A stretch of 35,253 nt of DNA from a virus (Duplodnaviria > Heunggongvirae > Uroviricota > Caudoviricetes), in the IMG/VR virus record IMGVR_UViG_2778261009_000009; one strand, written 5' to 3'. How positions within the stretch are numbered: the first letter of the stretch is position 1; every line of letters begins with the position of its first letter. Below, piece by piece: positions 4,178-34,966 of the stretch. The notes below the pieces were generated by a model. That model saw only the letters and a program-made list of their open reading frames with translations. It searched no databases and was not told where the DNA came from. Made by a program: the position numbers and the translations under genes.

Positions 4178-6518
4178 TGAACTACAGCTATTCCTGGAAT
4201 GCTGAGAAAAAAGCAATCAATCCTTACGTAGAGACGGAAGAGCAATCTTCAGTTTCTGCGCTTTCAAACCTGATCGCTCTGTACGCTGCCGATAACGAGC
4301 AGGAACAGCTGCGCCGCGAGGCACTGAGTGATCAGGTCTGGGAGCGTTATTTCTTTAATGAATCCCGTGATCCTGTCCAGCGCGAAATGGAGCAGGATAA
4401 GCTCATTAGTCGGGCAAAGCTGGCGCATGAGCAGCAGCGTTTTAATCCAGATATGGTCATTCTGGCGGACGTTAATGCCCAGCCTTCCCATATCAGCAAG
4501 CCACTGATGCAACGTATTGAATACTTCAGCAGCCTGGGCAGGCCAAAGGCTTATTCCCGCTATTTGCGTGAGACGATTAAGCCATGTCTGGAACGGCTGG
4601 AGCATGTACGCGACTGTCAGCTATCCACTTCTTTTCGCTTTATGGCAAGCCATGAAGGGCTGGACGGCCTGCTGATCCTGCCTGAAATGAGTCAGGATCA
4701 GGTGAAACGCCTGTCCACCCTGGTAGCTGCGCATATGAGCATGTGCCTTGATGCAGCTTGTGGCGATTTGTATGTCACCGATGACGTTAAGCCAGAAGAA
4801 ATCCGCAAGACATGGGAAAAGGTGGCAGCGGAAACCCTGCGTCTGGATGTTATCCCGCCTGCGTTTGAGCAACTCCGCCGGAAAAGAAACCGCCGTAAAC
4901 CCGTGCCCTATGAACTCATTCCGGGTTCGCTGGCGCGTATGTTGTGCGCTGACTGGTGGTACCGGAAATTATGGAAGATGCGTTGCGAATGGCGGGAAGA
5001 GCAGTTGCGTGCTGTCTGCCTGGTCAGCAAAAAGCATCTCCCTATGTCAGCTATGAAGCCGTGATGCATAAACGTGAGCAGCGCCGTAAGTCGCTGGAGT
5101 TTTTTCGTTCTCATGAACTGGTGAACGAAGACGGCGACACGCTGGACATGGAGGATGTGGTAAACGCCAGCAGCAGCAACCCTGCGCATCGCCGCAATGA
5201 GATGATGGCCTGTGTTAAAGGCCTGGAGCTTATCGCGGAAATGCGCGGTGACTGCGCCGTTTTCTACACCATCACCTGTCCGTCACGTTTCCATTCCACG
5301 CTAAATAATGGCAGGCCCAACCCAACTTGGACAAATGCGACGGTAAGACAAAGCAGTGATTATCTGGTCGGCATGTTTGCTGCATTTCGTAAGGCGATGC
5401 ACAAAGCCGGATTGCGGTGGTATGGCGTGCGGGTGGCTGAGCCGCATCATGACGGTACAGTTCACTGGCACCTGTTGTGTTTTATGCGCAAAAAAGACCG
5501 CCGCGCCATCACTGCATTACTGCGTAAGTTTGCCATCCGTGAAGACCGCGAGGAACTGGGCAATAACACTGGGCCGCGCTTTAAGTCTGAGTTGATTAAC
5601 CCGCGCAAAGGTACGCCAACAAGCTACATCGCGAAATACATCAGTAAGAACATTGACGGGCGTGGTCTGGCTGGCGAGATCAGCAAGGAAACGGGGAAAT
5701 CCCTGCGTGATAATGCTGAATACGTTAATGCCTGGGCGTCTCTGCATCGTGTTCAGCAATTCCGCTTCTTTGGCATTCCGGGGCGTCAGGCTTACCGTGA
5801 ACTGCGATTGCTGGCTGGTCAGGCGGCAAGGCAACAGGGGGACAAAAAAGCAGGTGCGCCGGTACTGGATAACCCGCGCCTTGATGCCATCCTGGCTGCT
5901 GCTGATGCTGGTTGTTTTGCCACCTACATCATGAAGCAGGGCGGCGTACTGGTTCCCCGCAAATATCACCTCATCAGAACCGCTTATGAAATCAACGAAG
6001 AGCCGACCGCCTATGGCGATCACGGCATTCGTATTTATGGCATCTGGTCACCTATTGCAGAGGGCAAGATCTGCACTCATGCCGTGAAGTGGAAAATGGT
6101 TCGTAAGGCCGTTGATGTTCAGGAGGCGGCAGCCGACCAGGGCGCTTGCGCCCCTTGGACTCGTGGCAATAACTGTCCCCCTGTTGAAAATTTGAACCAA
6201 TCAGGGGGCGATTTACCAGAAGCCAGTGGGCCGGAGTCGCTGCCGGATCTTCATAATCTGAGCGCGAAGGAACGACGGGAGCTGACGGCGCGGCTGAGAT
6301 TGGTAAAACCTAAGCGGCGGAAAGGGTACAAACAGCAGATTAGCAATCATCAGCGCCAGCAGCTTGATGCTGAACTGAGGTCTAGGGGGTTCGATGCGAG
6401 TGATACCGAGGTGGATCTGCTTTTGCGTGGTGGCAGTATCCCGTCCGGGGCCGGGCTGCGTTTGTTCTATCGAAACCAGCGCCTGCAGGAAGATGATAAA
6501 TGGCGGCAGTGGTACTAA
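4177..6518 (+). CDS. A: Replication initiation protein A (HUH rolling-circle endonuclease), interrupted by a frame change near 5029-5034 (ORFs 4177..5064 and 4956..6518)
   Basis: [16 protein letters not shown] motif and [12 protein letters not shown] tyrosine motif in the downstream frame; both frames resemble P2 A across the junction as recalled from memory. Confidence 0.8.
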
Positions 6519-6550
6519 TGTGAGAGTATTTTATATTCATATTCAAAAAT

Positions 6551-6582
6551 GCCAGCCTAACAAATCAGGCTGACATTTTTTT
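6551..6582. terminator. Bidirectional rho-independent terminator between gene A and convergent cargo operon
   Basis: Stem cagcct/aggctg (6553-6558/6567-6572), T7 run 6576-6582 on plus, A5 run 6545-6549 giving T-run on minus. Confidence 0.5.
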
Positions 6583-6589
6583 ACTTACT

Positions 6590-7048
6590 CTATTTAGTTT
6601 TTTCAATCATAGTGCTTTCGGCTTTTGAATATACACTATTAATAGTGGTGATTTTTGTAGTTAATGCTATACAAACTAGACTCAGAAGTAAGACACCAAT
6701 TGATATTGTATTGTTGCTGAGTATTATATGTAGACAAATAGAATAAATTGCAACAATGACTATTGCTACGAAAACAAAGATTGCCATTAAATTATGTGCT
6801 TTGATGTAGTCCTCAGGGGTTAATATGTAGCTTATGTTTATGATTATAAATAAAATTAAAAATGCTCCCCCAATCCATTTGGGTAGGGCTGTTTCTTTTT
6901 TTGATACTGCAGGTGTGGTTCTTGGGATCGATTCTACGAAGGATTTAAGATTTCCCATGTCAGTATTGTTTAATGCTGCACTTTCTGCTTCGAATTTTGA
7001 AACAGTGCCATCAGGAAGGGTTGTAGTCCAGCTTATTTTTCCTGTCAT
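6590..7048 (-). CDS. cargo membrane protein (152 aa; about 55-aa soluble N-terminus then about 3 TM helices), unknown function
   Basis: AT-rich ORF; start ATG overlaps upstream stop (ATGA); AGGGA RBS; hydrophobic segments FLILFIIINISYIL, MAIFVFVAIVIVAIYSI, IGVLLLSLVCIAL. Confidence 0.6.
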   Translation of the reverse strand: MTGKISWTTTLPDGTVSKFEAESAALNNTDMGNLKSFVESIPRTTPAVSKKETALPKWIGGAFLILFIIINISYILTPEDYIKAHNLMAIFVFVAIVIVAIYSICLHIILSNNTISIGVLLLSLVCIALTTKITTINSVYSKAESTMIEKTK

Positions 7049-7419
7049 ACAACATCCCTTATTCTGAATATTCTATTAAAATCAATATCAACAGCAGAGT
7101 TCGACCACTCACTCTTTTGATTATCTTTAATTAGAATTGCTTTGTTCTCGTCAAAGATTATATTTGTACCACTAAACTCAATATGAGATAGGTCTCCTCT
7201 AAATATTTTTTGCTCAACGCTTTTGAATGCATCTTTTAATGATGCACACTCTTTTCTGAATAATGGTTTGGGGCTGTAAGTCCCTAAGTTTATAACTATT
7301 ACGCCACTACCATCTTTAGCAGGGTGAATGGAGAAAGATAGCGCTAATCCGTGATAGTGGGATTGTATTTTCTTCATTAATTTACGAACGTAATCATCAT
7401 ACCGCTTTCTATATATCAT
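7045..7419 (-). CDS. cargo soluble protein (124 aa), unknown function, first gene of two-gene operon
   Basis: AT-rich ORF translationally coupled to 6590..7048; candidate promoter TCGACA-18-TAATAT upstream on minus strand. Confidence 0.55.
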   Translation of the reverse strand: MIYRKRYDDYVRKLMKKIQSHYHGLALSFSIHPAKDGSGVIVINLGTYSPKPLFRKECASLKDAFKSVEQKIFRGDLSHIEFSGTNIIFDENKAILIKDNQKSEWSNSAVDIDFNRIFRIRDVV

Positions 7420-7583
7420 TTTTTTCTTAATGGTTAGTTGTTTTTCGTATATTACAATACTAATAAATATATTGTCGATTCAAATAAAACGTTGTAGCCA
7501 AGCGGAAGAATTTTAGTTTACGGATGGTTGTTTTTTGATCTCCATAGCCGAAGGCAATCTGAACTATAGTGATCATAAAAGTG

Positions 7584-7627
7584 TTTACATTCATGGAACT
7601 ACGCATATACTGTATATGTGTACAGTG
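7584..7627 (+). promoter_or_regulatory. SOS-regulated promoter: -35 TTTACA (7584-7589), -10 TATACT (7606-7611), LexA box TACTGTATATGTGTACAGTG (7608-7627)
   Basis: Perfect CTGT-N8-ACAG palindrome (7610-7625) overlapping the -10 and start site, about 30 bp upstream of a strong RBS. Confidence 0.7.
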
Positions 7628-7657
7628 CTTTCTGTGTGTTTGGTGATAGGAGGGAAG

Positions 7658-7846
7658 ATGCAAGACTATTTTTTGGAGTCGTTGAAGCTCCAGCGCATTG
7701 ATTTTTTTGTCAAGCTTGTGGCGGCTAGTGAGTGTGATGATGAAGAGAAGCGACTGGCTATCCAGTGGGTTTCTGAGTTAACGGATGAGCTGATGGCAAA
7801 GATTCGTGCTCATGAATACAACCGCTCAATGGATCTTCCCAGTTAA
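7658..7846 (+). CDS. SOS-controlled small protein (62 aa), candidate Tum/DinI-like antirepressor
   Basis: ATG at 7658 with TAGGAGGGA RBS immediately downstream of LexA box; acidic small protein; weak resemblance to DinI C-terminus. Confidence 0.55.
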   Translation: MQDYFLESLKLQRIDFFVKLVAASECDDEEKRLAIQWVSELTDELMAKIRAHEYNRSMDLPS

Positions 7847-7924
7847 CAGCAGGAACGTTGCTGGCGTGAGAACTAGCTTCTTACGTCAGCAAGGTTAAAC
7901 AACGAGTACAACGAGGCGTTAGCC

Positions 7925-8191
7925 ATGGGTAAATCCAACAGCAAATTCCAGACCGTTTATGAGGGGCAGGCGCTTGAACGTGACGAACTTGGCGGATGGG
8001 TTTTGTTTCAGCGTCGTGTAGAGTATGGCGGCAAGTACTGGATGGGAATAACCATGGATGATGTGTTTTTGTTTGGCTCCGATCATCCTGTATCAGGTAG
8101 TGAGGCGATGGTCTTCATCATTGATTATGAGGGCGAGCAGCTCAGACGGTCTTTACCCGTTGGATACACCCCACAAATGCCGCTTTTCTGA
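7925..8191 (+). CDS. SOS-operon second gene (88 aa), unknown function
   Basis: ORF with GAGG RBS, same strand, followed by strong terminator. Confidence 0.5.
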   Translation: MGKSNSKFQTVYEGQALERDELGGWVLFQRRVEYGGKYWMGITMDDVFLFGSDHPVSGSEAMVFIIDYEGEQLRRSLPVGYTPQMPLF

Positions 8192-8258
8192 CAACCGGCT
8201 GGGTGCATGTCTATGCTGCATGAGATCGCATGATCGTTTGAGGATCGTTTTCGCTGAG

Positions 8259-8286
8259 GCCCGCCAGAACTGGCGGGCTTTTGCTT
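8259..8286 (+). terminator. rho-independent terminator of the SOS operon
   Basis: 8-bp GC stem gcccgcca/tggcgggc, loop gaac, followed by TTTTGCTT. Confidence 0.75.
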
Positions 8287-8327
8287 ATGTCATGCAGGTG
8301 CATGAAAATCGCTCCATAAAGCGGGCA

Positions 8328-8346
8328 GGCGTGGCGGGGATACGAG
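8328..8346. other. candidate cos site (cohesive-end sequence) GGCGTGGCGGGGATACGAG
   Basis: First 13 nt match the P2/186-family 19-nt cohesive end as I recall it (GGCG(A/T)GGCGGGGAAAGCA...); lies in non-coding DNA between right-end genes and the Q side. Confidence 0.35.
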
Positions 8347-8433
8347 CGCGCGCAATAGGGTTATGTACAATAAATTTTTGACGATCTTCGAGTGTTATTA
8401 GCTTGAGGCTGTCAGGGAAAATGAATACAATAA

Positions 8434-8465
8434 GAAGCGCCTAGCAGAATGTTACTAGGCGCTTC
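8434..8465 (-). terminator. perfect 11-bp inverted repeat hairpin (gaagcgcctag ... ctaggcgcttc), possible terminator of the minus-strand cargo operon
   Basis: Read directly; followed on minus strand by T-rich stretch; no T-run on plus. Confidence 0.35.
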
Positions 8466-8498
8466 GAATATATAACCTGTATGACTTTCTTAACCTAC

Positions 8499-8606
8499 TT
8501 ATCTTTTTGATTTCTTCTTCGTATCATCGTGATCGAATACTTGGCGTGTAGGCGGCTTGCTGGGTGGTGGCGGCGGCGGTAAATTAGATTTCTCATTTTT
8601 GCTCAT
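8499..8606 (-). CDS. polyproline mini-ORF 3 (35 aa): MSKNEKSNLPPPPPPSKPPTRQVFDHDDTKKKSKR
   Basis: Hand-translated; own AGGA RBS; start lies inside the end of mini-ORF 2; paralogous to two upstream mini-ORFs. Confidence 0.35.
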   Translation of the reverse strand: MSKNEKSNLPPPPPPSKPPTRQVFDHDDTKKKSKR

Positions 8607-8724
8607 CTTTATTTTTCCTATTTTTTGGATCATTGCCATAGCTTTCTCTAACTAACCGAGTGATTGGCGGTTTAGGTGGTGGTGGTGGTGCTTCATTTTT
8701 TTTAGGATTTTTGTGTTCGGTCAT
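8593..8724 (-). CDS. polyproline mini-ORF 2 (43 aa): MTEHKNPKKNEAPPPPPKPPITRLVRESYGNDPKNRKNKDEQK
   Basis: In-frame portion of track ORF 8593..8778 starting at ATG 8724 with AAGGA RBS; overlaps neighbours in other frames. Confidence 0.4.
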   Translation of the reverse strand: MTEHKNPKKNEAPPPPPKPPITRLVRESYGNDPKNRKNKDEQK

Positions 8725-8839
8725 TTTTATCGTCCTTTCTGTCTCTTCGTAGTTGCCTTGCTTTTGAATCATCTTCAATAACGATCCTTCTTGCGGGTGG
8801 AGTAGGCCGAGGAGGTGGTGGCGGTAACGGTTTGGTCAT
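8702..8839 (-). CDS. polyproline mini-ORF 1 (45 aa): MTKPLPPPPPRPTPPARRIVIEDDSKARQLRRDRKDDKNDRTQKS
   Basis: Hand-translated; ATG overlaps stop of upstream membrane-protein gene (TAATG); AGGAGA RBS 5 nt upstream. Confidence 0.4.
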   Translation of the reverse strand: MTKPLPPPPPRPTPPARRIVIEDDSKARQLRRDRKDDKNDRTQKS

Positions 8840-9489
8840 TAAGTTCTCCTGACATTTTCAATAGGTATTATCAAATAGTTAGGGTCGTTATTTTTCCGCG
8901 GTGATGCTGCATCTAAATCAGCTAAAAGAAATATGACTACTGCTGCGATAATTGGAATCCATGACCAGACAAGATACTTTGTTGACTCAAATAGTTTACT
9001 GGAACGTTCCTCATTGATATTACTGTTCCAGCTAGCACATTCTCTGATTTCTTGATGAATAAACTCCCAAAGTTTATTATCAGGGTTATAACTTTCATCG
9101 TATGTAAGTCCATTGTCATCGCAATATTTTTTATATTTCACTTCGTAACTAATCAGATCTATGTGATAATCATGCAATGCTTTAGGTGCAGGGCAATACT
9201 TAAATTCATTTCCCCATATGACTTGTTTCAACAGAATTGATGATACAAGAACTAAACCAAATGAAATTGCGGTACATAAAAATACTAGGCAAGCTAGCCT
9301 TGGGTGGGATTCATAAGATGTATTTTTGGCGAGATAAGTGAGTATAGTTGCGGTAATGACAACTAATCCGAATTCGGCTTGAGCGCGAGTATGTATCTTG
9401 TCTTTATTCTCAATTTCTGAGAAATAAAGTTTTTCGTAAAATTCTAATGCTTTATCCTTTTTCATTTTTAGATTCAGTGTGATGTCCAT
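8839..9489 (-). CDS. cargo membrane protein (216 aa; two N-proximal TM helices, soluble Cys-containing middle domain, C-terminal TM helix), unknown function
   Basis: AT-rich ORF between portal terminator and mini-ORFs; hydrophobic segments FGLVVITATILTYL, LACLVFLCTAISFGLVLVSSILL, VWSWIPIIAAVVIFLL. Confidence 0.6.
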   Translation of the reverse strand: MDITLNLKMKKDKALEFYEKLYFSEIENKDKIHTRAQAEFGLVVITATILTYLAKNTSYESHPRLACLVFLCTAISFGLVLVSSILLKQVIWGNEFKYCPAPKALHDYHIDLISYEVKYKKYCDDNGLTYDESYNPDNKLWEFIHQEIRECASWNSNINEERSSKLFESTKYLVWSWIPIIAAVVIFLLADLDAASPRKNNDPNYLIIPIENVRRT

Positions 9490-9510
9490 GTATCAAACAT
9501 ATCACGATAA

Positions 9511-10587: not shown

Positions 10588-12350
10588 AAAATCTCCACAA
10601 TATTGCTGGTATTGGCGGACTCGCCCTGCAGCGGTTCGTTAAACAGTGCGTGCATTGTTGCCCAGGCCAGATCGGCGTGACTGGCTTCTTCGCTGCGGCT
10701 GGCTTCATAGGTCGGGCGGTTGCCGCTGGCGGTGGTGGCGCGACGGATTGCCATGAATGACTGCGCTATGTCGGTGTGTCCGGCGTCAAACTCCAGACGG
10801 CGGTGGCTGATAATGTCGTAGGCCTTGAGTACCAGGGCGTTTTTAACATTGGGGTTGTAGACAAACTCCCGGACGGCAGGAAAGAACGCTTTTACGTTCT
10901 CGTAAACCCCGTGGCCGACCCCAGTTGAGTCGATGCCGATATAGGTCACGTTGTACTGTTCGGTCAGTTTTTTGATTGCGTCAGCCTGGGCGCGGAAGTC
11001 CATCCCGCGCCACTGGTGACGCTCAAGAATGCGGAACTTACCGCCCGGCACGGCTGGCGGTGCCACCACCACGCATCCGGCACTGTCGCCGTTCTGCGTA
11101 CCTTTTGCCGGGTCATAACCGATCCATACTTCGCGCCAGCCAAACGGGCGAAGGGCCAGTGCATGAAAGTCGGTCCAGACTTCCCAACTGTCCACCATGC
11201 ACGCCTGCAGCTCGCTGAGCGGAAACACGGACGCGAGATCGTCCACAAACTCGCACATCAGCAGGTTCTGGTATTCGTCCGGGCTGTACTCCATGCGCAA
11301 CTGGTCAAGGTCGAACAGGTTGCAGCCGCCGCGCACCGCATCTTCCACGGTGACTATCTGGCGGTATTGCCCGTCTGCGCACAGCAGGCCGGGGGCCAGA
11401 TTGCTGTGGGACAGGTCGATGTCCACCTTGTCAGCTTTGTTGCGTCCACGGTTGAACAGCGCACCGGACCAGAACGGATAAGCACTGTGGGTCAGGCTGG
11501 ATGGCGTGGAAAAATAGGTTTGTCGCCATTTCTTGTGAATAGCCATCCCGGAAGCCACTTTGCGCAGCTCCTGGAATTTCGGTATCCAGAAATATTCATC
11601 CAGATACAGGTTGCCGTGATAACTCTGGGCCGTGCGGGCATTGGTGCCGAGGAAGTAAAGCGTGGCCCCATTAGGAAGCACCATCGGATCGCCTTTTAGC
11701 TCCACCTCGACTTCTTTGGCGAAGTCGATGATGTATTGTTTAAAGACGTGGGCCTGAGCCTTACTGGCAGAAAGGAAAATCTGGTTACGTCCGGTCAGCA
11801 GGGCGTCAATCAGGGCTTCACGGGCAAAATAGAAGGTCGCGCCGATCTGGCGTGACTTCAGCAGGTTGCGGATGCGGTTGGTTTTTCCGGCTTCCCACCA
11901 GTGGCGCTGGTAGTTGAACATGGAGGAATGGAAGATTTCTTCCAGCTTCTCAATCTGTTCATCGTTGAAGACATTCTTTTCCGGCTGACGGCGCGGGCCC
12001 TTGTTGCGGTTGGCGACGTTAGGATTTAAGTCGGCTTCGTTGCCGCCATTGTTAAACTTGCCGATCCGCGCGTGGCGCTCCGACTGGCGCGCCAGCAGGT
12101 CAATCTCTTTGAAATCTTTCCCTTCTTTGTGCTCCTTCATAATGAGCTGGCAGTAGCGTGCGGCGGTGGTGAGCTGCATCTGATCCAGCGGCCCATAGTC
12201 ACCCCACTTGTCGCGTTTTTTCCAGCTGTGAACGGTTGCAACTTTCTCGCCCAGCATTTCAGCAATGCGGGCGACGCGGTATCCCTGAAAGTACAGCAGC
12301 ATGGCCTGCCGACGGGGATCGAGATCTGCGGGTGTCAGTGTGGTGTTCAT
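10584..12350 (-). CDS. P: terminase large (ATPase) subunit, gpP-like
   Basis: 588-aa ORF divergent from capsid operon, position and size as P2 P. Confidence 0.85.
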   Translation of the reverse strand: MNTTLTPADLDPRRQAMLLYFQGYRVARIAEMLGEKVATVHSWKKRDKWGDYGPLDQMQLTTAARYCQLIMKEHKEGKDFKEIDLLARQSERHARIGKFNNGGNEADLNPNVANRNKGPRRQPEKNVFNDEQIEKLEEIFHSSMFNYQRHWWEAGKTNRIRNLLKSRQIGATFYFAREALIDALLTGRNQIFLSASKAQAHVFKQYIIDFAKEVEVELKGDPMVLPNGATLYFLGTNARTAQSYHGNLYLDEYFWIPKFQELRKVASGMAIHKKWRQTYFSTPSSLTHSAYPFWSGALFNRGRNKADKVDIDLSHSNLAPGLLCADGQYRQIVTVEDAVRGGCNLFDLDQLRMEYSPDEYQNLLMCEFVDDLASVFPLSELQACMVDSWEVWTDFHALALRPFGWREVWIGYDPAKGTQNGDSAGCVVVAPPAVPGGKFRILERHQWRGMDFRAQADAIKKLTEQYNVTYIGIDSTGVGHGVYENVKAFFPAVREFVYNPNVKNALVLKAYDIISHRRLEFDAGHTDIAQSFMAIRRATTASGNRPTYEASRSEEASHADLAWATMHALFNEPLQGESANTSNIVEIF

Positions 12351-12395
12351 GGCACAAACCTACAGCCTTGAATGAAGGCTTTCCCCGCCTGCGGT

Positions 12396-12413
12396 TTGTG
12401 TGGTTGTCGGTAC
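12396..12413 (+). promoter_or_regulatory. late promoter activator site TGT-N12-ACA (Ogr/Delta-type) upstream of capsid operon
   Basis: tgt gtggttgtcggt aca read directly; about 95 bp upstream of O start. Confidence 0.5.
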
Positions 12414-12492
12414 AAATACCGCGCATTGTTTCACTGCCCCTATCACCGCAACCATAAGGCTCCAGTAAGTTTTTTCTAACGGAGCACGGCTC

Positions 12493-17467: not shown

Positions 17468-17861
17468 AGCGGTGCCTTATGTCCGCAATAACCCGGACAA
17501 ACTGCATCTGTTTGTGGATAACGGTTCGCTGGTTGCCACGGGGGTCAGCTCCATGTCGTGGGAGTACCGTTACACCCTGAACGCGGTGATTGAGGATTTC
17601 AGCGGCGACCAGAATCTGCTGATGGCCCCGGTTTTGCTGTGGCTGAGGGATAACCAGCCCGATGCCATCAATAACCCGGCGTTACGGGAAAAACTATTCA
17701 CCTTTGAGGTGGATATTCTGCGCAACGATGTCTGTGATATCAGCCTTAACCTGCAACTGACGGAGCGTGTGCTGGTCAGCACTGACGGCAGTGTGTCGAA
17801 CGTTGAAGCGGTAGCGGAACCTGATGAACCTGAAGAAATGTGGACGGTGAAACGTGGCTGA
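17430..17861 (+). CDS. R: tail completion protein gpR-like (GTG start at 17430 after CAGGAG; alternative TTG at 17409)
   Basis: Size and position as P2 R. Confidence 0.75.
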   Translation: MNKPQSLRHALNKAVPYVRNNPDKLHLFVDNGSLVATGVSSMSWEYRYTLNAVIEDFSGDQNLLMAPVLLWLRDNQPDAINNPALREKLFTFEVDILRNDVCDISLNLQLTERVLVSTDGSVSNVEAVAEPDEPEEMWTVKRG

Positions 17862-18300
17862 ACTGCAGAAGGTGGACGACTGGCTGAGTGCCTTGCTGGC
17901 GAATCTGGAACCAGCCACGAGAAGTCGCATGATGCGCCAGCTGGCGCAGGAACTGCGCCGGACACAGCAGCAGAACATCAGGATGCAGCGCAATCCAGAT
18001 GGCAGCAGTTATGAACCTCGACGGGTAACAGCACGCAGTAAAAAGGGGCGCATCAAACGTCAGATGTTTGCAAAGCTGCGCACCACAAAATACCTGAAAA
18101 CTGCCGCCAGCGCCGACTCTGCCAGCGTACAGTTTGAAGGTAAGGTGCAGCGTATTGCCCGTGTTCACCATTACGGCCTGCGCGATCGCGTCAGTCGCAA
18201 AGGACCGGAAGTTCGTTACGCAGAGCGTCGGTTGCTGGGTCTTAATGGTGAGTCTTACGTTCTAACTCTTGATATATTGAATAGATTCCTTCTGTCTTGA
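17854..18300 (+). CDS. S: tail completion protein gpS-like (GTG start); last ~19 codons lie in AT-rich inserted DNA
   Basis: Size and position as P2 S; 3' end overlaps convergent moron gene. Confidence 0.75.
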   Translation: MAELQKVDDWLSALLANLEPATRSRMMRQLAQELRRTQQQNIRMQRNPDGSSYEPRRVTARSKKGRIKRQMFAKLRTTKYLKTAASADSASVQFEGKVQRIARVHHYGLRDRVSRKGPEVRYAERRLLGLNGESYVLTLDILNRFLLS

Positions 18301-19048
18301 ATTCACCATATGCCCAATGAATTGCATTTTTTTGTTCAGTCAGAATATATTTCCTAACTTTTTTAGAATAATGAATGGTCAGTATAAAACCCAAAGAAAT
18401 CCATAATAGAATAAATATGGTTGTTGGGGCAAAGGAATAGATAAAGAATTTGTCTTTAACGAAATTCTTGACTTCTTCATCAATGTAAGCATTCCCTTCA
18501 TCAGTGGTTAGTAGTTTACAAAGAATTTCTTTATGTTCGATAGTTAATGATTTGTACTTCTCTGTACTGGCAGAGGATGACTCTTCGCAATCATCCTTTG
18601 ATATTTCCCAATCAGGAGTGGTTAATATTGTAGCTGCAGTCGCCAGTTTTTTTGACATATAAAATGATTCACCGGACTTTATCCAATAAAGCAATGTGCT
18701 ATTTGGTGGGGTTCTAATGGCTTGGATGAAAACTGGACCAAAAATATAAATTGCATACAAAAAAAGAAGTGAAAAGAGAACCGTGATTGATTTTTCAGCC
18801 CATGTGATAGTAGGCAGCCTTTTTAATGATATTCGTATAAGAAAAAAATTTAATATAAACGCAGGTATTCCTGATTTTTTCAAAATTACATCATGAGATT
18901 TTCTATATTTGAATAGTGCTCTTATAACTATCGTCACCAAAGTTATAATAGCTCCAATAATGGAAATCCATGCGGCAAGTGCCGCTGCCGGGGTGTTTAA
19001 AAATTCAGCATTAAATATATTAGAACTTATTGGATTCATAACACTCAT
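18242..19048 (-). CDS. moron-encoded membrane protein (268 aa, about 4 TM helices with central soluble region), unknown function
   Basis: AT-rich minus-strand ORF between S and V; AGGTGG RBS; hydrophobic segments at N-terminus, ~88-110 and ~210-232. Confidence 0.6.
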   Translation of the reverse strand: MSVMNPISSNIFNAEFLNTPAAALAAWISIIGAIITLVTIVIRALFKYRKSHDVILKKSGIPAFILNFFLIRISLKRLPTITWAEKSITVLFSLLFLYAIYIFGPVFIQAIRTPPNSTLLYWIKSGESFYMSKKLATAATILTTPDWEISKDDCEESSSASTEKYKSLTIEHKEILCKLLTTDEGNAYIDEEVKNFVKDKFFIYSFAPTTIFILLWISLGFILTIHYSKKVRKYILTEQKNAIHWAYGEFKTEGIYSIYQELERKTHH

Positions 19049-19087
19049 TTATCCACCTATTGGTTGTTTTTTATCCTTTTATCAATT

Positions 19088-19105
19088 TGTACCATCGATA
19101 CCACA
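19088..19105 (+). promoter_or_regulatory. late promoter activator site TGT-N12-ACA upstream of baseplate operon (V)
   Basis: tgt accatcgatacc aca read directly, about 50 bp upstream of V start. Confidence 0.5.
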
Positions 19106-19151
19106 ATTTGCAAGAAGTTATAAACAAGTTTTCAGCTGTCATCATATATCT

Positions 19152-19730
19152 ATGAACGCACAATTAACCGAAATCATGCGCCTTATCACCAACCTGATCC
19201 GCACAGGGGTAGTCACCGAAGTGGACAGGGAAAACTGGCTTTGCCGGGTGAAAACGGGCGAGCTTGAAACCAACTGGATCAGCTGGCTGACGCTGCGTGC
19301 CGGGAATGCCCGCACATGGTGGCGACCATCGGAAGGTGAGCAGGTGGTGCTGCTTAGTCTGGGCGGCAATCTGGAAACAGCCTTTGCGTTACCCGCCATC
19401 TATTCGAATCAGTTCGCGCCACCGTCGACGTCGGCGGACGTCTGCGTGACAGAACATCCTGATGGTGGCTGGTTTGAATACGAACCCGCCACCGGGCGCT
19501 GGTATGTCAGGGGCATCAAATCAATGGTCATTGAGGCCGCTGACAACATCACCCTGAAAACCAGTGAGTTTGTACTGGAGGCTGACCGCACGCGCATTAA
19601 CAGCGAAGTGGTGATCAATGGTGGCGTTACCCAGGGCGGCGGAGCGATGAGTTCTAACGGGATCGTGGTTGATGCGCATCAGCATACTGGCGTCCTGAAA
19701 GGCGGCGACACAACCGGAGGCCCGGTATGA
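19152..19730 (+). CDS. V: baseplate spike/assembly protein gpV-like
   Basis: 192-aa ORF from internal ATG 19152; upstream extension to 18909 lies in the moron region and is rejected. Confidence 0.8.
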   Translation: MNAQLTEIMRLITNLIRTGVVTEVDRENWLCRVKTGELETNWISWLTLRAGNARTWWRPSEGEQVVLLSLGGNLETAFALPAIYSNQFAPPSTSADVCVTEHPDGGWFEYEPATGRWYVRGIKSMVIEAADNITLKTSEFVLEADRTRINSEVVINGGVTQGGGAMSSNGIVVDAHQHTGVLKGGDTTGGPV

Positions 19731-23117: not shown

Positions 23118-23719
23118 TGAATAACGCAGAATTAAACAGTGAATTAATTGCCACTATAGCAGGAGAAATTACTGTTTATAACTTTGACGTCATGAGTCGG
23201 GAGTATATTTCAGCTTCAACTGAATATCTTGCTGTTGGTGTCGGCATTCCGGCATATTCCTGTTTAGATGCTCCAGGCACCTACAAAGCTGGTTATGCAA
23301 TCTGCCGCTCTGCAGATTTTAACTCATGGGAATATGTACCAGACCATCGCGGTGAAATTGTCTTTAGCACCGAAACAGGAGAATCAAAAGAAATCACAGC
23401 ACCGGGTGATTACCCTGATAATACAACCACTATCGCCCCGTTAACGCCATACGATAAATGGGATGGTGAGAAATGGGTGACGGATACCGAGGCACAGCAT
23501 AGCGCCGTAGTAGATGCAGCAGAAGCACAGCGCCAGTCGCTGATTGATACAGCAATGGCTTCTATCAGTCTGATTCAACTGAAATTACAGGCCGGACGGA
23601 ATCTGACGCAGGCAGAAACCGCCCGACTTAACGCTGCGCTGGATTACATTGACGCGGTGACGGCAACAGATACCAGCACCGCACCGGATGTCATCTGGCC
23701 TGAACTGCCGGAGGCGTAG
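23117..23719 (+). CDS. G: tail fibre assembly protein (Tfa, gpG-like), expressed orientation
   Basis: 200-aa ORF overlapping H stop; conserved C-terminal APDVIWPELP-type motif. Confidence 0.8.
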   Translation: MNNAELNSELIATIAGEITVYNFDVMSREYISASTEYLAVGVGIPAYSCLDAPGTYKAGYAICRSADFNSWEYVPDHRGEIVFSTETGESKEITAPGDYPDNTTTIAPLTPYDKWDGEKWVTDTEAQHSAVVDAAEAQRQSLIDTAMASISLIQLKLQAGRNLTQAETARLNAALDYIDAVTATDTSTAPDVIWPELPEA

Positions 23720-24110
23720 GCCATTCAATATCTGGAGCACTGGAGGGATCAACCAGTTCCAGTGCGTCCAGATAATCCAGCCATAAATTATATTGCGCCA
23801 GTTCCTCACCTTTCAGACGACCAATAGCCGCTTTACCTAGCCATTGTCTGCTGTTCATGTGCTCGTTGGCTTCATTAATAAGTTTTCTTTTTTCCAACTC
23901 CACCAATGCAATAAGGTTTTCTTTTGATAAAGGTGGTTGCTCTGTCAAAACCGGATATCCCTCCTGATTGCTGACTATTTTCATGCCATTATCCTGACCA
24001 TCCAGTAGTAACAGCCATTCATCCGTGGTTATCTCAACAGCATCTGAAGGTGCTTTATTTAAATCGGTAAAAAAACCATTTTCTTTTTGTGAATAGAAGT
24101 ATCTGTCCAT
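23691..24110 (-). CDS. alternative tail fibre assembly protein (Tfa'), silent orientation
   Basis: 139-aa ORF with Tfa-type C-terminus SAPDIEWPTPP; follows alternative fibre segment on minus strand. Confidence 0.7.
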   Translation of the reverse strand: MDRYFYSQKENGFFTDLNKAPSDAVEITTDEWLLLLDGQDNGMKIVSNQEGYPVLTEQPPLSKENLIALVELEKRKLINEANEHMNSRQWLGKAAIGRLKGEELAQYNLWLDYLDALELVDPSSAPDIEWPTPPAVQAR

Positions 24111-24113
24111 TTA

Positions 24114-24487
24114 TCAATCTCCAAAAGCAATCCAGTAAGCAAAAGGATTTATTCCTTGCTCAGTCACAGATGACATCAGGGAAAATTGCGATGGTGAAAC
24201 AGGCAATGCTGCAAAACTAACCATTGTTGACACACCTGACCGTGCATTATCGTACGATGCAACAACACAATAATTGGTATTGCTGAAAGATATCGGCAGG
24301 GTGATATTTACAGGTGAGCCTAATGGTCCTGATGCTGATATTCCCATTTGAATGATGGTTCCATCAGGCAATTTTCTCCAGCGATTAGAACTCGGATTTC
24401 TTTTCCAGGCTGACATATCCGGTATCTGATTTTCTCCTGTACCCACATCCCTTTTCGCCGCTTCTCCCAAACCAACGTTTATTAAAA
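24114..24487 (-). CDS. alternative tail fibre C-terminal variable segment (H'v), no own start; becomes fused to H constant part after inversion
   Basis: Reading frame continues through crossover site encoding GLGE shared with H (…YLGLGE); ends 3 nt before Tfa' start. Confidence 0.65.
24462..24487. other. invertase crossover site (hix/gix-like 26-bp site, right), next to invertase gene
   Basis: ttctcccaaaccaacgtttattaaaa with central AA; inverted relative to site at 22612-22637. Confidence 0.7.
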
Positions 24488-24542
24488 TGCAGAGATAATG
24501 GCTAACTGGCATCATCCATGGTTTTTATTCAGGGGATTGATC

Positions 24543-25109
24543 ATGCTTATTGGCTATGTACGCGTGTCAACAAATGACCAGAACACCGATTTGCAACGTA
24601 ATGCACTGAACTGCGCGGGATGTGAGCGGATTTTTGAGGATAAAATCAGTGGCACTAAGCCCGACAGACCGGGGCTTAAAAAACTGCTCAGGACACTATC
24701 GGCTGGAGACACTCTGGTTGTCTGGAAGCTGGACAGGTTGGGGCGCAGTATGCGGCATCTTGTTACGCTGATAGAAGAGTTGCGTCAGCGTGGCGTGAAT
24801 TTCCGAAGCCTGACTGACAGTATTGATACCAGCACCCCAATGGGCCGTTTCTTTTTTCATGTCATGGGGGCCCTGGCTGAAATGGAACGCGAACTGATAG
24901 TTGAACGTACCATGGCAGGGCTGGCTGCAGCTCGTGCCAAAGGCAGAGTAGGTGGACGCCGTCCTAAGTTGACCACCGAACAGTGGGCACAGATTGGGCG
25001 TTTACTCGAGGCCGGAGAATCAAGACAGCGTATTGCACTGATTTTTGATGTAGGCGTTTCTACCATTTATAGAAAATTTCCGGCAAATAAGAGCAATGAA
25101 TCCCCCTGA
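24543..25109 (+). CDS. serine DNA invertase (Hin/Gin/Cin/Pin family)
   Basis: N-terminal MLIGYVRVSTNDQ catalytic-serine motif, resolvase domain, C-terminal HTH; ATG 24543 with AGGGGA RBS. Confidence 0.85.
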   Translation: MLIGYVRVSTNDQNTDLQRNALNCAGCERIFEDKISGTKPDRPGLKKLLRTLSAGDTLVVWKLDRLGRSMRHLVTLIEELRQRGVNFRSLTDSIDTSTPMGRFFFHVMGALAEMERELIVERTMAGLAAARAKGRVGGRRPKLTTEQWAQIGRLLEAGESRQRIALIFDVGVSTIYRKFPANKSNESP

Positions 25110-25157: not shown

Positions 25158-25175
25158 TGTGTGAATAACGACACA
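25158..25175 (+). promoter_or_regulatory. late promoter activator site TGT-N12-ACA upstream of tail sheath operon
   Basis: tgt gtgaataacgac aca read directly, about 80 bp upstream of FI start. Confidence 0.5.
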
Positions 25176-32089: not shown

Positions 32090-32179
32090 TTCTTCGCAAT
32101 GGAGAACTTTTAAGTTTGCAAAATGGAATAATGCGGTATCATTATTGTGAATTTAGCAAAAATGGGGAGAACTCGAAAA

Positions 32180-32398
32180 ATGATGATTTGCCCACTGTGT
32201 GGAAGTGCCGCCCATACTCGCAGCAGTTTTCAGGTATCTTCATTGACCAAAGAGCGTTACAACCAGTGCCAGAACATTAACTGCAGCCATACTTTTGTTA
32301 CCCATGAAACTTTTGTTCGTTCGATTGCAACGCCAAAAGAGTCAAATCCGGTTCAGCCGCATCCAATGAAATCAGGACAGGTGGCGCTCTCTCTTTGA
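32180..32398 (+). CDS. ogr: Ogr/Delta-family zinc-finger late transcription activator (72 aa)
   Basis: MMICPLCGSAAHTRSS...CQNINCSHTF four-Cys pattern; same length as P2 Ogr; ATG at 32180. Confidence 0.8.
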   Translation: MMICPLCGSAAHTRSSFQVSSLTKERYNQCQNINCSHTFVTHETFVRSIATPKESNPVQPHPMKSGQVALSL

Positions 32399-32633: not shown

Positions 32634-34319
32634 TTATCCTAATCCTGGCCATACCATGACGATGATTGTCCCTGCCAGCGTCAGCAGGACGTTGGCGATT
32701 GCATAGGTGCCCGCATAGCCCAGCGCCGGGATGTTACTGCGAGCTGTATCACTGATGATCTCCATTGCCGGCGCGCAGGTACGTGCGCCCATCATTGCGC
32801 CGAACAACAGCGCGCGGTTCATTCGCAATACATAAGCACCGAACAAGAAACAGATAACCACGGGCACCAGACTGACAATCAATCCGGCAATCAACATCTG
32901 ACCGCCAATCGCGCCCAGGCCGTTATTAATACCGCTACCGGCGCTCAGACCAACGCCTGCCATAAACACCATCAAGCCGAACTCTTTCACCATGCTTAAT
33001 GCACCCTGCGGAATGTAACCGAAGGTCGGGTGGTTAGCACGCATAAAGCCCAGCATAATTCCGGCGAATAACAACCCGGCAGCGTTCCCCATGCCGAAAC
33101 TGAATGTGCTGAACTGGAAGGTGATCATCCCGATCATCAGCCCAATAACAAAGAAGGCGCAGAATGCCAGCAGGTCAGTGACCTGGCTGTGAATCGAGAT
33201 AAAGCCGATGCGATCGGCGATGGTTTTTACGCGGCGGGCATCGCCGCTGACTTGTAAAACGTCACCTTTGTTAAGCACGACGTTGTCATCTATCGGCATC
33301 TCAATCTGGCTACGAATGACGCGGTTAAGGAAGCAACCGTGATCGGTCAACTTCAGTTGTGCGAGACGTTTACCTACAGCGTTATGGTTTTTAACGACCA
33401 CTTCTTCAGTGACGATACGCATGTCGAGAAGGTCACGATCGAAAACTTCTTTACCGTTACGGAAGCTGGGATCGAGTCGGGCATGGGCGTCGGGATAGCC
33501 TACCAACGCTATTTCATCGCCCATTTGTAGCACGGCATCACCGTCTGGATTTGCCAGAATCCCGTTACGTCGAATACGTTCAATGTAGCAGCCGGTTTGT
33601 CGATAAATACCCAGTTCACGCAGATTTTTGCCGTCGGTCCAGGCCACCAGTTCCGGGCCGACGCGATAGGCGCGGATCACCGGTAAATAAACCTTACGGT
33701 TGGCATCAGTGTCCAGGCCACGTTCGCGGGCGATTTGCTGGGCGCTGGTCTGTAAGTCCTGATGCTGCAATTTCGGCAAGTAACGCGCACCAACAATCAA
33801 ACTCACCAGACCGATTAAATAGGTTAAGGCATACCCGAGGCTCAGATTATCCAGTGCCAGTGAGAGCTGCCTGCTTTCCATGCCGGAATGACGCAGTGTA
33901 TCGCCAGCACCGACCAGAACCGGTGTCGACGTCATAGAGCCTGCTAACATACCGGCCGTCAGGCCAATATCCCAGCCAAACAGCTTACCTAACCCTAAGG
34001 CGATCACCAGCGCACTGCCAACCATCACCAGTGCTAACATTAGGTAATTTTTCCCATCGCGAAAAAAAATGGAAAAAAAGTTCGGTCCGGCTTCGACCCC
34101 GACGCAGAAAATAAACAGCATAAAGCCAAGATTAAGCGCATCGGTGTTAATGCTGAAATGTTGTTGGCCTAATAACAGCGATACGACTAAAACGCCAATG
34201 GAATTACCCAGTTGGATCGAACCAAGTCGTAACTTTCCGAGACATAGCCCAAGCGCGAGGACCACAAATAATAACAGAATGTAATTCCCATTTAACAATT
34301 CGGCGACGTTTATATTCAC
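32634..34319 (-). CDS. ybjL: host putative transporter YbjL (AAE family, 561 aa, GTG start)
   Basis: Multi-TM N- and C-terminal halves flanking soluble RCK_C-like repeats; recognised as E. coli YbjL. Confidence 0.8.
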
Positions 34320-34588
34320 GGAGGCTAACTTCTTGTTTACTAGTAAGCTGTTGAAAGAAATGGTAATTTACGATAATGTTTTTTACCAGAATTCAGGGCG
34401 CAGATTCATTCAGCGCACCTAAACGATAGTAAAGTAACAATATATTTTACTAGTGTAATCACATTAGGTATCAACGGCTATATGAATTGCGTTGGCCTAT
34501 ATTAGCATGGAATGCGAAGCGGCTTTATCTTACTGAACGCCACACTGGCGAAAAATGTGTTCGATAGACGCAGTGTCAGGAGGAACGA

Positions 34589-34966
34589 GTGAAACATAAA
34601 CAACGTTGGGCGGGGGCAATCTGCTGTTTTGTCCTCTTCATTGTGGTGTGCCTTTTTCTGGCGACGCACATGAAAGGCGCTTTTCGGGCTGCCGGGCATC
34701 CTGAAATCGGCTTGCTATTTTTCATTCTTCCTGGAGCAGTCGCCAGCTTCTTTTCACAGCGTAGAGAAGTCCTGAAACCTCTGTTTGGCGCAATGCTGGC
34801 GGCACCCTGTTCGATGCTCATTATGCGGCTGTTTTTTTCACCGACGCGCTCATTCTGGCAAGAGCTGGCATGGTTACTAAGCGCGGTGTTCTGGTGTGCG
34901 CTGGGGGCACTGTGTTTCTTATTTATCAGTAGTTTGTTTAAACCACAGCACAGAAAAAATCAGTAA
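34589..34966 (+). CDS. ybjM: host inner membrane protein YbjM (125 aa, GTG start)
   Basis: CAGGAGG RBS; hydrophobic 125-aa protein adjacent to grxA as in E. coli. Confidence 0.7.
   Translation: MKHKQRWAGAICCFVLFIVVCLFLATHMKGAFRAAGHPEIGLLFFILPGAVASFFSQRREVLKPLFGAMLAAPCSMLIMRLFFSPTRSFWQELAWLLSAVFWCALGALCFLFISSLFKPQHRKNQ

What the first reader, a model, noticed from the sequence alone, without database searches (positions are those of the whole stretch)
18242..19150. Membrane-protein moron between S and V with a chimeric S 3' end
An AT-rich 268-aa membrane protein gene sits on the minus strand between tail-completion gene S and baseplate gene V. Its 3' end overlaps the last ~19 codons of S (18242-18300), which are themselves AT-rich, so the insertion appears to have replaced the native S C-terminus. 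Its promoter region shares the 19049-19150 interval with the late promoter site for V (TGT-N12-ACA at 19088-19105). A lone multi-TM protein embedded in late genes is typical of superinfection exclusion or abortive-infection cargo.
Basis: seen in the sequence. Interest (0 to 1): 0.6.

Follow-up and report, generated by a model that had tools for sequence, protein, structure and literature searches.

The report
Membrane-protein cargo at P2 orf30 site
An AT-rich gene for a small inner-membrane protein of unknown function sits at a known variable spot between two tail genes of a P2-like prophage; bacteria keep it even after the rest of the prophage has decayed, so it probably benefits the host, most plausibly by blocking other phages.

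Summary
ORF 18242-19048 (-) encodes a 268-aa protein with three transmembrane segments. It is 33% G+C against about 57% in the flanks, and its last 59 nt overlap the end of tail gene S. A TGT-N12-ACA site lies at 19088-19105, upstream of V.

The window is a P2-like prophage beside ybjL. The site is the known "orf30" variable locus of P2. The protein belongs to Pfam DUF6216 and matches no known defence family.

Among 5,426 complete E. coli genomes, 1,042 carry this R-S backbone. Of these, 544 have an empty S-V junction, 111 carry this cassette (including BL21/BLR(DE3)), and 22 carry another cargo.

The last ~17 residues of S travel with the cassette. They are a homologous S-tail variant encoded antisense to the conserved cargo tail.

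The predicted cargo promoter (-35 TTGCAA, -10 TACAAA) encloses the Ogr site of the V late promoter.

The gene is under purifying selection (dN/dS 0.12-0.33). It stays intact in decayed prophage remnants of several genera, once as the only surviving phage gene.

P2 Orf30 has the same position, orientation, size and predicted secondary-structure order, so it is probably a remote relative.

The function is untested. My best guess is envelope-level exclusion of other phages or abortive defence in lysogens. I file it as a new member of a known kind, of moderate interest.

The parts
17854..18300 (+). Tail-completion (virion morphogenesis) gene S, 148 aa. The body up to about 18230 is the normal backbone allele.
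   Evidence: Pfam Phage_tail_S, E 8.3e-40, residues 3-146. It is 89% identical to S of Escherichia phage 500465-1, with all differences clustered in the last ~17 residues.
18231..19151 (.). Exchangeable AT-rich cassette. It comprises the S tail variant, the DUF6216 gene and the divergent promoter spacer. It takes the place of about 139 nt in relatives with an empty site.
   Evidence: Homology to the empty-site relative L001 breaks at about 18230 and resumes at the V ATG. Between the window and the BL21-type prophage the cassette has 6 mismatches in 900 nt. The adjacent flanks have 48 in 750 (Fisher p 1.7e-11).
18242..18300 (.). A 59-nt antisense dual-coding overlap. It encodes the S C-terminus (…ESYVLTLDILNRFLLS*) on the + strand and the cargo C-terminus (…EGIYSIYQELERKTHH*) on the - strand.
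   Evidence: Both peptide tails are conserved across cargo-bearing loci. The cargo tail stays conserved where S is deleted or carries stop codons.
18242..19048 (-). DUF6216-family gene encoding a 268-aa inner-membrane protein. The predicted layout is N-terminus outside, three transmembrane segments (24-42, 90-108, 207-225), a periplasmic domain of about 95 aa carrying the invariant C154 and C177, and a basic cytoplasmic C-tail.
   Evidence: Pfam PF19723, 44.4 bits against a cut-off of 27.3. Hydropathy and charge distribution. AlphaFold model, pLDDT 73.8. Both cysteines are invariant in 41 family members. dN/dS is 0.12-0.33.
19053..19058 (-). Shine-Dalgarno sequence AGGTGG of the cargo gene, 4 nt before the ATG.
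   Evidence: Read from the sequence. AGGTGG or GGAGG is conserved in all nine aligned loci.
19086..19113 (-). Predicted sigma-70 promoter of the cargo gene: -35 TTGCAA (19108-19113), a 16-nt spacer, and TGG + -10 TACAAA (19086-19091). The inferred transcription start is near 19079.
   Evidence: CTTCTTGCAAAT and GGTACAAATT are the most conserved blocks upstream of the gene in nine loci, down to 47% protein identity. They persist in remnants that have lost V. A similar layout is seen in the very distant locus L023, and the -35 block in the fossil locus L019. The generic promoter scan did not call it. It has not been mapped experimentally.
19088..19105 (+). Ogr/Delta activator dyad TGT-N12-ACA of the V late promoter. 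It lies inside the spacer and the -10 of the cargo promoter.
   Evidence: The centre lies 55.5 nt from the V ATG, as in L001, L002 and P2. The half-site that lies only in the spacer is mutated in the four most decayed remnants. The half-site inside the cargo -10 is kept.
19140..19152 (+). Inferred -10 of the V late promoter (CATCAT, 19140-19145) and a leaderless start at the V ATG (19152).
   Evidence: Inferred by analogy with the P2 record, where the V transcription start is annotated at the first base of the CDS. CATCAT is conserved where V is intact and decays in remnants.
19152..19730 (+). Baseplate spike gene V, 192 aa.
   Evidence: Pfam Phage_base_V (E 5.8e-18) and the GpV Apex motif. 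It is 98% identical to V of phage 500465-1.

Best explanation
This is a single-gene cargo cassette at the known orf30 (S-V) variable site of P2-like phages.

**The protein.** It encodes a DUF6216-family inner-membrane protein. The N-terminus is predicted to lie outside, followed by three membrane helices. A periplasmic domain of about 95 aa carries two invariant cysteines, which I infer form a disulfide. The C-terminal tail is conserved, basic and cytoplasmic.

**Expression (inferred).** The gene is transcribed away from V, from its own sigma-70 promoter. That promoter's spacer and -10 contain the Ogr-binding dyad of the V late promoter. The inferred logic is as follows. In the lysogen no Ogr is made, so the cargo promoter is free, although it may be damped by H-NS because the DNA is AT-rich. 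During lytic growth Ogr occupies the site. Late transcription from the O operon also runs through S into the cargo gene in antisense, because no terminator separates them. Both effects would shut the cargo gene off.

**Link to S.** The last 19 cargo codons are encoded antisense to the last 19 codons of S, so the S tail and the cargo move together as one recombination unit. The cassette is exchanged between P2-like backbones by homologous recombination within S and V.

**Function (inferred, not shown).** The protein serves the host rather than the virion. Most likely it acts at the envelope against incoming phages, either by blocking DNA entry or by triggering abortive infection at the membrane.
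For: **Anatomy and family.**

**Variable site.**
- Related phages lack the gene (L001) or carry an unrelated soluble cargo (Cartapus).
- P2 carries Orf30 there, in the same orientation.
- The literature names orf30 as one of three sites of horizontal acquisition in P2 (PMC3091744).
- E. coli genome counts are 1,042 with the backbone, 544 empty, 111 with this cassette and 22 with the Cartapus type.

**Cassette exchange.** Between the window and the BL21-type prophage, cargo dS is 0.011. S has dS 0.28 and V 0.14. Identity is 99.3% in the cassette against 92-95% in the flanks.

**A real gene that benefits the host.**
- dN/dS is 0.12-0.33 across nine loci.
- The gene is intact while S is a pseudogene or deleted, in remnants from Klebsiella aerogenes, Citrobacter, Scandinavium and a MAG.
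- In L019 a 35%-identical homologue is the only phage-derived gene left between ybjL and rcdA.
- A 33%-identical homologue sits in the moron position between Q and the holin of a lambdoid-type phage.

**Fast protein evolution.** Between the window and L015, cargo dN is 0.455. The structural genes have dN 0.04-0.09 at comparable dS.

**Promoter nested with the operator.** See the conserved blocks and the distant loci.

**No terminator.** None was found between S and V on either strand. P2 has one there.

**H-NS link.** A September 2026 preprint on H-NS silencing of immunity loci contains the phrase "and DUF6216 gene". It also mentions BL21 29 times and P2-like 4 times. I could not read the text.
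Against: - No functional evidence was obtained.
- There is no match in PADLOC and no significant PHROG match.
- No solved or viral structure resembles the model.
- The gene is absent from all 50,697 deposited phage genomes. It is so far known only from prophages.
- The most conserved parts are cytoplasmic (loop 45-87 and tail 227-249). A pure periplasmic entry-blocker would not obviously show that pattern.
- The generic promoter scan did not call the proposed promoter. Its -10 lacks the usual final T.
- The canonical DUF6216 proteins are ordinary chromosomal orphans with no phage context. The family need not be dedicated to defence.
Confidence: 0.55

Rival explanations
1. The gene is host-beneficial cargo, but not anti-phage. 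It would be an envelope protein giving some other lysogenic-conversion trait, such as immunity to membrane-acting bacteriocins, tailocins or contact-dependent toxins, or envelope stress tolerance.
For: The evidence of retention in decayed prophages and purifying selection is the same as for the main explanation. There is no similarity to any known defence protein. Canonical DUF6216 members sit in ordinary chromosomal neighbourhoods. Small inner-membrane proteins with 3-4 membrane helices are also the format of immunity proteins to pore-forming colicins (my own background knowledge, not tested).
Against: P2-like variable sites are dominated by anti-phage cargo (PMC9122126, PMC13586616). The high dN relative to the structural genes fits an arms race. 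The gene is mentioned in a paper on H-NS-silenced antiviral loci.
Confidence: 0.25
2. The gene is a phage-lifecycle accessory. The protein would serve the phage itself, for example by tuning lysis timing or by preventing re-adsorption or re-injection into the lysing cell. It would be the functional counterpart of P2 Orf30.
For: It has the same site, orientation, size and predicted secondary-structure order as P2 Orf30. It lies just downstream of the lysis genes. There are weak, non-significant resemblances to holin families.
Against: About half of the otherwise near-identical backbones lack it. It points against the late operons and would be antisense-suppressed during lytic growth. It persists intact where every phage function is gone. 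P2 orf30 is annotated as nonessential.
Confidence: 0.1
3. The gene is a selfish passenger. It would be a potentially toxic membrane protein that persists because its 3' end is interlocked with the essential gene S, and because H-NS silences it. No benefit to host or phage would be needed.
For: The 59-nt dual-coding overlap means that any deletion removing the cargo's 3' end truncates S. AT-rich DNA is a typical H-NS target (abstract of the preprint listed).
Against: The ORF stays intact, with dN/dS well below 1, in loci where S is already dead or deleted. The interlock therefore cannot explain its retention. Precise cargo-free junctions are common.
Confidence: 0.07
4. The ORF is spurious and lies in non-coding AT-rich filler.
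For: No evidence beyond the lack of a known function.
Against: The chance probability of the ORF is about 1e-9. It matches a Pfam family. There are 31 full-length homologues down to 50% identity, with dN/dS 0.12-0.33, a conserved Shine-Dalgarno sequence and a conserved promoter.
Confidence: 0.01

Closest known systems
Bacteriophage P2 Orf30 (NP_046770.1), the nonessential gene between S and V
   Same: It lies at the same locus, on the same (minus) strand, divergent from V and convergent with S. Size is similar (261 against 268 aa). It is AT-rich and has three transmembrane segments at similar positions. Two invariant cysteines sit in the loop between TM2 and TM3 with similar spacing: TM2 to Cys1 is 50 against 46 residues, and Cys2 to TM3 is 27 against 30. 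The predicted element order is the same: TM2, four beta-strands, a short helix with the 'DC' motif, a helix with the second Cys, then a long helix into TM3. Function is unknown in both.
   Different: There is no significant pairwise similarity (BLASTP E 0.69). Profile-profile comparison is only borderline: 40% probability with E 2.9e-4, 11% with a second alignment and 0.3% with a narrow alignment. Orf30 has no Pfam match. It does not overlap S; a terminator is annotated between them. It has a longer cytoplasmic loop.
Pfam DUF6216 (PF19723)
   Same: The window protein scores above the gathering cut-off (44.4 against 27.3 bits). It shares the invariant W…DC…C signature and the TM2, periplasmic domain, TM3 core.
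   Different: Only residues 73-237 match (profile positions 115-265). The N-terminal third differs from canonical members such as P0085 (271 bits, full length, chromosomal orphan). The C-terminal ~22 residues that overlap S are specific to the P2-borne subgroup.
P2 cargo defence genes old, tin and Z/fun, and the TO and Z hotspots of P2-like phages (Rousset et al. 2022, PMC9122126)
   Same: These are also AT-rich accessory genes at a fixed site between conserved genes, exchanged among P2-like prophages. BL21's copy of this prophage carries a retron in the TO hotspot.
   Different: The site is different (S-V, inside the tail and baseplate gene block). It was not analysed in the hotspot surveys I read. 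There is no sequence relationship, and no demonstrated anti-phage activity.
Prophage-encoded membrane superinfection-exclusion or abortive proteins (for example P22 SieA, T4 Imm, HK97 gp15, lambda RexB) — named from my own background knowledge
   Same: They share the general format: a small inner-membrane protein encoded by a (pro)phage outside its structural operons.
   Different: No homology was detected in the PHROGs or PADLOC libraries. The mechanism is untested. The resemblance is one of format only.

Membership tests
Pfam DUF6216 (PF19723) | Whole-protein HMM score at or above the curated gathering cut-off | tested here: met
   44.4 bits against a cut-off of 27.3, E 1.6e-11, but a partial match (profile positions 115-265 of 270). 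RefSeq names the E. coli orthologue 'DUF6216 family protein'.
Pfam DUF6216 (PF19723) | Conserved core: two cysteines and a tryptophan in the loop between the last two membrane helices | tested here: met
   C154 and C177 are invariant, and W147 and F129 at least 90% conserved, in a 41-sequence family alignment reaching 14% identity.
Moron (independently acquired, independently expressed phage cargo gene) | Present in some and absent from other closely related genomes at the same site | tested here: met
   111 E. coli genomes carry it, 544 have the empty junction and 22 have another cargo. Phage 500465-1 is empty.
Moron (independently acquired, independently expressed phage cargo gene) | Nucleotide composition deviating from the surrounding genome | tested here: met
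   33% against 57% G+C. All P2-borne alleles are 32-38% G+C.
Moron (independently acquired, independently expressed phage cargo gene) | Own promoter | tested here: inconclusive
   Conserved -35 TTGCAA, 16-nt spacer and -10 TACAAA blocks persist after loss of V. The generic scan did not call the promoter, and no transcript data were available.
Moron (independently acquired, independently expressed phage cargo gene) | Own terminator | tested here: not met
   No intrinsic terminator-like site on either strand in 17800-19400. The gene ends inside S.
Moron (independently acquired, independently expressed phage cargo gene) | Expressed from the repressed prophage | not testable with these tools
   This needs RNA-seq or a reporter in a lysogen. 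A preprint on H-NS silencing in BL21 mentions the gene but could not be read.
P2 Orf30 family | Same locus and orientation (between S and V, divergent from V) | tested here: met
   P2 record compared with the window.
P2 Orf30 family | Detectable sequence homology | tested here: inconclusive
   BLASTP E 0.69. hhalign gives probabilities of 40%, 11% and 0.3%, depending on the alignment used. The predicted secondary-structure order and cysteine spacing are the same.
Known anti-phage defence systems (PADLOC-DB v2.0.0) | Match to any defence-protein HMM | tested here: not met
   0 families at E up to 10.
Superinfection-exclusion proteins | Blocks DNA entry or an early step of a superinfecting phage | not testable with these tools
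   This requires infection assays. There is no significant PHROG match to exclusion families.
Superinfection-exclusion proteins | Located in the cell envelope | tested here: met
   This is a prediction only. Three hydrophobic helices and the charge distribution place residues 110-205 in the periplasm.

The most novel reading that the evidence does not exclude
DUF6216 and Orf30 proteins would form one ancient, fast-evolving family that is the resident of a third, overlooked immunity locus of P2-like phages. The family would be hard-wired into phage regulation in two ways. First, its promoter contains the Ogr operator of the V late promoter, so the gene is on in lysogens and switched off when late genes fire. 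Second, its C-terminus is overprinted on the essential S tail, so cargo and tail gene are inherited as one unit. The protein would be an envelope-level anti-phage effector useful enough to be domesticated as the sole survivor of decayed prophages in several genera.
Probability: 0.2. Interest if true: 0.65.

Novelty: new member of a known kind. Interest (0 to 1): 0.45.

Why it matters
The S-V (orf30) site has been listed as variable since the P2 genome was analysed. The recent large surveys of P2-like defence hotspots that I read concentrate on the gpA-gpQ hotspot, and in two of the three on the Z/fun hotspot as well. P2 orf30 still has no known function.

This gene is present in BL21(DE3)-lineage laboratory strains and in about 2% of complete E. 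coli genomes, so it is easy to test.

If it proves to be an anti-phage or envelope-protective factor, several things would follow:
- A Pfam family of unknown function, and probably P2 Orf30 too, would gain a function.
- A third cargo locus would be added to the P2 defence repertoire.
- It would give a compact example of a cargo promoter nested in a late-activator operator.
- It would give an example of a cargo gene overprinted on an essential tail gene.

If it has no phenotype, it remains an ordinary hypothetical membrane protein at a known variable site.

Tried and rejected
**Searches that found nothing useful**
- PADLOC, PHROGs and NCBIfam gave nothing significant for the cargo protein.
- Nucleotide and protein searches of 50,697 phage records found no copy.
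- A profile search of PDB sequences found nothing.
- The afdb50 library was not available.

**Searches with limited reach**
- Scanning genome contigs with the family alignment gave only 5 loci.
- Scanning viral contigs with the broad alignment failed, because it has no conserved stretch to search with.
- The third homologue search, with the broad alignment, mostly re-found close relatives.

**The unreadable preprint**
- The one paper that mentions this gene in a relevant context (bioRxiv 10.64898/2026.09.05.749240) could not be opened.
- Phrase probing established only the wording "and DUF6216 gene" and the counts of BL21, P2-like and retron mentions.

**Ideas I rejected**
- A spurious ORF, ruled out by the selection and conservation evidence.
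- A holin. The weak holin matches (Pfam family E 0.037; PHROG holin family E 0.17) reflect the membrane helix alone.
- A fourth transmembrane segment at residues 61-75. It is too short, it would violate the positive-inside rule for the C-tail, and the model does not make it helical across a membrane.
- Retention explained by the overlap with S, refuted by intact copies beside a dead or deleted S.
Full report
**What is there**

The window is a P2-like (Peduoviridae) prophage. It runs from the CI repressor (2-673, -) through the head, lysis, tail and baseplate genes to ogr (32147-32398). The host genes ybjL and ybjM follow at 32634-34966.

- S is 17854-18300 and V is 19152-19730.
- Between them, on the minus strand, ORF 18242-19048 encodes 268 aa.
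- G+C is 33% in the gene, 32% in the 59 nt shared with S and 30% in the 103-nt spacer to V. S and V themselves are 57%.
- A stop-free run of this length at this composition has a chance probability of about 1e-9.

**The protein**

- Hydropathy gives three membrane segments: 24-42, 90-108 and 207-225.
- The loop after TM1 and the tail after TM3 are rich in Lys and Arg. The 110-205 domain is net acidic and holds the only two cysteines.
- By the positive-inside rule this gives N-terminus out and C-terminus in, with a periplasmic domain of about 95 aa. This is an inference.
- The AlphaFold model (pLDDT 73.8) shows TM2, four short strands, a short helix with D153-C154, a helix with C177, and one long helix running through TM3 into the cytoplasm.
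- The protein passes the Pfam DUF6216 threshold (44.4 against 27.3 bits), but only over residues 73-237.
- It has no PADLOC, PHROG, NCBIfam or PDB match, and no informative structural neighbour.
- The family is small. Only 49 representatives were found among 1.84 billion proteins. Most are 234-246 aa and lack the last ~22 residues. C154 and C177 are invariant across 41 members.

**The site is variable and already known**

- Close relatives share R, S, V and W at 85-98% protein identity. Escherichia phage 500465-1 has only a 68-nt spacer between S and V. Cartapus has an unrelated soluble 176-aa protein there, on the minus strand.
- P2 itself carries the nonessential Orf30 (261 aa) at this site and on this strand.
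- The literature lists orf30 with the TO and Z regions as the places where P2-like phages carry horizontally acquired genes (PMC3091744).
- The recent hotspot surveys I read treat the gpA-gpQ hotspot, and two of them Z/fun as well, or mention tail-gene hotspots only in general terms.
- Among 5,426 complete E. coli genomes, the R-S backbone occurs in 1,042, the empty junction in 544, this cassette in 111 and the Cartapus cargo in 22.
- Carriers include the E. coli B lineage, BLR(DE3) and C3029. There the gene sits in the defective P2-like prophage at the same ybjL site.
- No deposited phage genome has the gene.

**The S tail**

- S is 148 aa both here and in the empty-site relative, but the last ~17 residues differ: GESYVLTLDILNRFLLS against DDVEAMTRDMILQWLAG.
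- DNA homology breaks at about 18230 and resumes at the V ATG.
- Every cargo-bearing locus with a readable S end has the same tail type, …ES(Y/I)xLTLDIL(N/H)R(F/Y)LL.
- This tail is still a recognisable S tail. The Pfam match runs to position 147 of 148, and D140 and L146 are shared with the other alleles.
- It is encoded antisense to the cargo tail …EGIYxIYQEL(E/D)R. In this frame relation, codon position 3 of each gene pairs with position 2 of the other, so no site is free in both genes (read from the coordinates).
- The cargo tail is conserved before the overlap too (A242, I243, G248, E249, F250). It stays conserved where S has stop codons or is deleted. The cargo frame is therefore selected in its own right.

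**Cassette behaviour**

- Between the window and the BL21-type prophage, the cassette has 6 differences in 900 nt and the adjacent 750 nt of flank has 48 (Fisher p 1.7e-11). Cargo dS is 0.011, against 0.28 for S and 0.14 for V. This indicates recent exchange of the cassette between backbones by recombination in S and V.
- Against a Buttiauxella MAG prophage (L015), dS is similar for cargo and structural genes (1.4 against 0.65-1.5). Cargo dN is 0.455, against 0.04-0.09. The gene is an old resident that evolves fast at the protein level.

**Retention**

dN/dS is 0.12-0.33 in all pairs. The gene is intact in remnants where the phage is dead:

- **Klebsiella aerogenes.** V is cut by an IS element and S has stop codons.
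- **Citrobacter youngae.** Only fragments of S and R remain.
- **Scandinavium, Citrobacter sedlakii and an Enterobacteriaceae MAG.** S has been deleted right up to the cargo stop codon.
- **Serratia rubidaea.** The arrangement is ogr-cargo-S.

More distant relatives extend the picture:

- A 35%-identical homologue is the only phage-derived gene left between ybjL and rcdA in another genome. Its G+C has partly ameliorated to 45%.
- A homologue of about 20% identity again lies between V and S remnants and overlaps S by 20 nt.
- Another lies in the moron position between Q and the holin of a lambdoid-type phage.
- Canonical DUF6216 members are chromosomal orphans.

**Promoter architecture**

The 103-nt spacer is strikingly conserved across nine loci, down to 47% protein identity. 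Read in the cargo sense it is CTTCTTGCAAAT-TGTGGTATCGATGGTACA-AATT…AGGTGGATAAATG.

- I read this as -35 TTGCAA (19108-19113), a 16-nt spacer, TGG + -10 TACAAA (19086-19091) and a Shine-Dalgarno sequence.
- The Ogr dyad fills the spacer and overlaps the -10.
- The dyad centre is 55.5 nt from the V ATG here, in two relatives with unrelated spacers, and in P2. In the P2 record the V transcription start is annotated at the ATG.
- In the four most decayed remnants, the half-site that lies only in the spacer has mutated (TAT or AGT) and the V -10 (CATCAT) has decayed. TTGCAA and GGTACAA are kept.
- The distant locus L023 shows TTGCAG-TGT-N12-ACA-AAT. The fossil L019 keeps CTCTTGCTA without the dyad.
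- No terminator-like site exists between S and V on either strand. P2 has one.

I infer that the cargo gene is expressed in lysogens and shut off in late lytic growth, by Ogr occupancy and by antisense read-through from the O operon. None of this has been shown experimentally.

**Relation to P2 Orf30**

- Pairwise similarity is not significant (E 0.69).
- Profile-profile comparison aligns the same 70-80 columns each time: DC…C, the helix, KxK, TM3 and the basic tail. The probabilities are 40% (E 2.9e-4), 11% and 0.3%, depending on alignment breadth.
- Segment and cysteine spacing match.
- The Orf30 AlphaFold model (pLDDT 72) has the same element order after TM2.
- Together with the identical locus and strand, I rate remote homology at roughly two in three.

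**Function**

Nothing here tests function. The arguments are indirect.

- Retention under purifying selection in dead prophages argues for a benefit to the host.
- The envelope location, the fast protein evolution, the site's membership of a phage family whose variable loci are dominated by anti-phage genes, and the mention of the gene in a paper on H-NS-silenced antiviral loci in BL21 (text not readable) together make envelope-level anti-phage action the most likely role.
- A different envelope trait, a role in the phage's own lifecycle, or selfish persistence remain possible. They are scored as rival explanations.

**Verdict**

This is a real, well-delimited cargo cassette at a known variable site, encoding a member of a family of unknown function. 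The dual-coded S tail, the promoter nested in the Ogr operator and the sole-survivor fossils are the features worth following up.

Noticed in passing
window 6500-9500: This is the AT-rich (33-45% G+C) cargo region between the replication gene and the portal gene, the TO hotspot. It has minus-strand ORFs 6590-7048 (152 aa), 7045-7419 (124 aa) and 8839-9489 (216 aa), and none has a Pfam or PADLOC match. The BL21 relative carries a retron (St85/Ec86 type) at this position instead.
   Followed up: partly
window 23691-25109: Minus-strand tail-fibre and assembly ORFs (23691-24110 and 24114-24515) lie next to a resolvase-family invertase (24498-25109, Pfam Resolvase E 1e-52). This looks like a Cin/Gin-type invertible host-range segment in the Z/fun region.
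   Followed up: partly
window 12339-12414 and 25158-25175: Three more TGT-N12-ACA sites lie where the P, O and FI late promoters of P2 are expected. Two are in the divergent P/O spacer and one is 85 nt upstream of the FI start.
   Followed up: partly
window 32634-34966; L003; L008; L012; L013; L019: The prophage abuts ybjL and ybjM, the same attachment region as the defective P2-like prophage of E. coli B. Remnants in Citrobacter, Scandinavium and a MAG sit at the same place. This suggests either an old integration inherited vertically or repeated use of one att site.
   Followed up: partly
L002 1413-1943 (Escherichia phage Cartapus): A different cargo occupies the same S-V site. It is a soluble 176-aa protein on the minus strand with no Pfam or PADLOC match, and it is present in 22 complete E. 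coli genomes, including LF82. In Cartapus the S tail is also a distinct AT-rich variant.
   Followed up: partly
[not shown]
   Followed up: no
L020 5001-5741: A 33%-identical DUF6216 homologue sits between an antiterminator Q / ParE-type toxin-antitoxin pair / DNA methylase block and the holin of a lambdoid-type phage. The family therefore also travels in the classic late-operon moron site of an unrelated phage group.
   Followed up: no
window 18909-19730: The ORF list gives a 273-aa TTG-started ORF that is only an artefactual upstream extension of V through the AT-rich spacer. The true V start is the ATG at 19152.
   Followed up: yes
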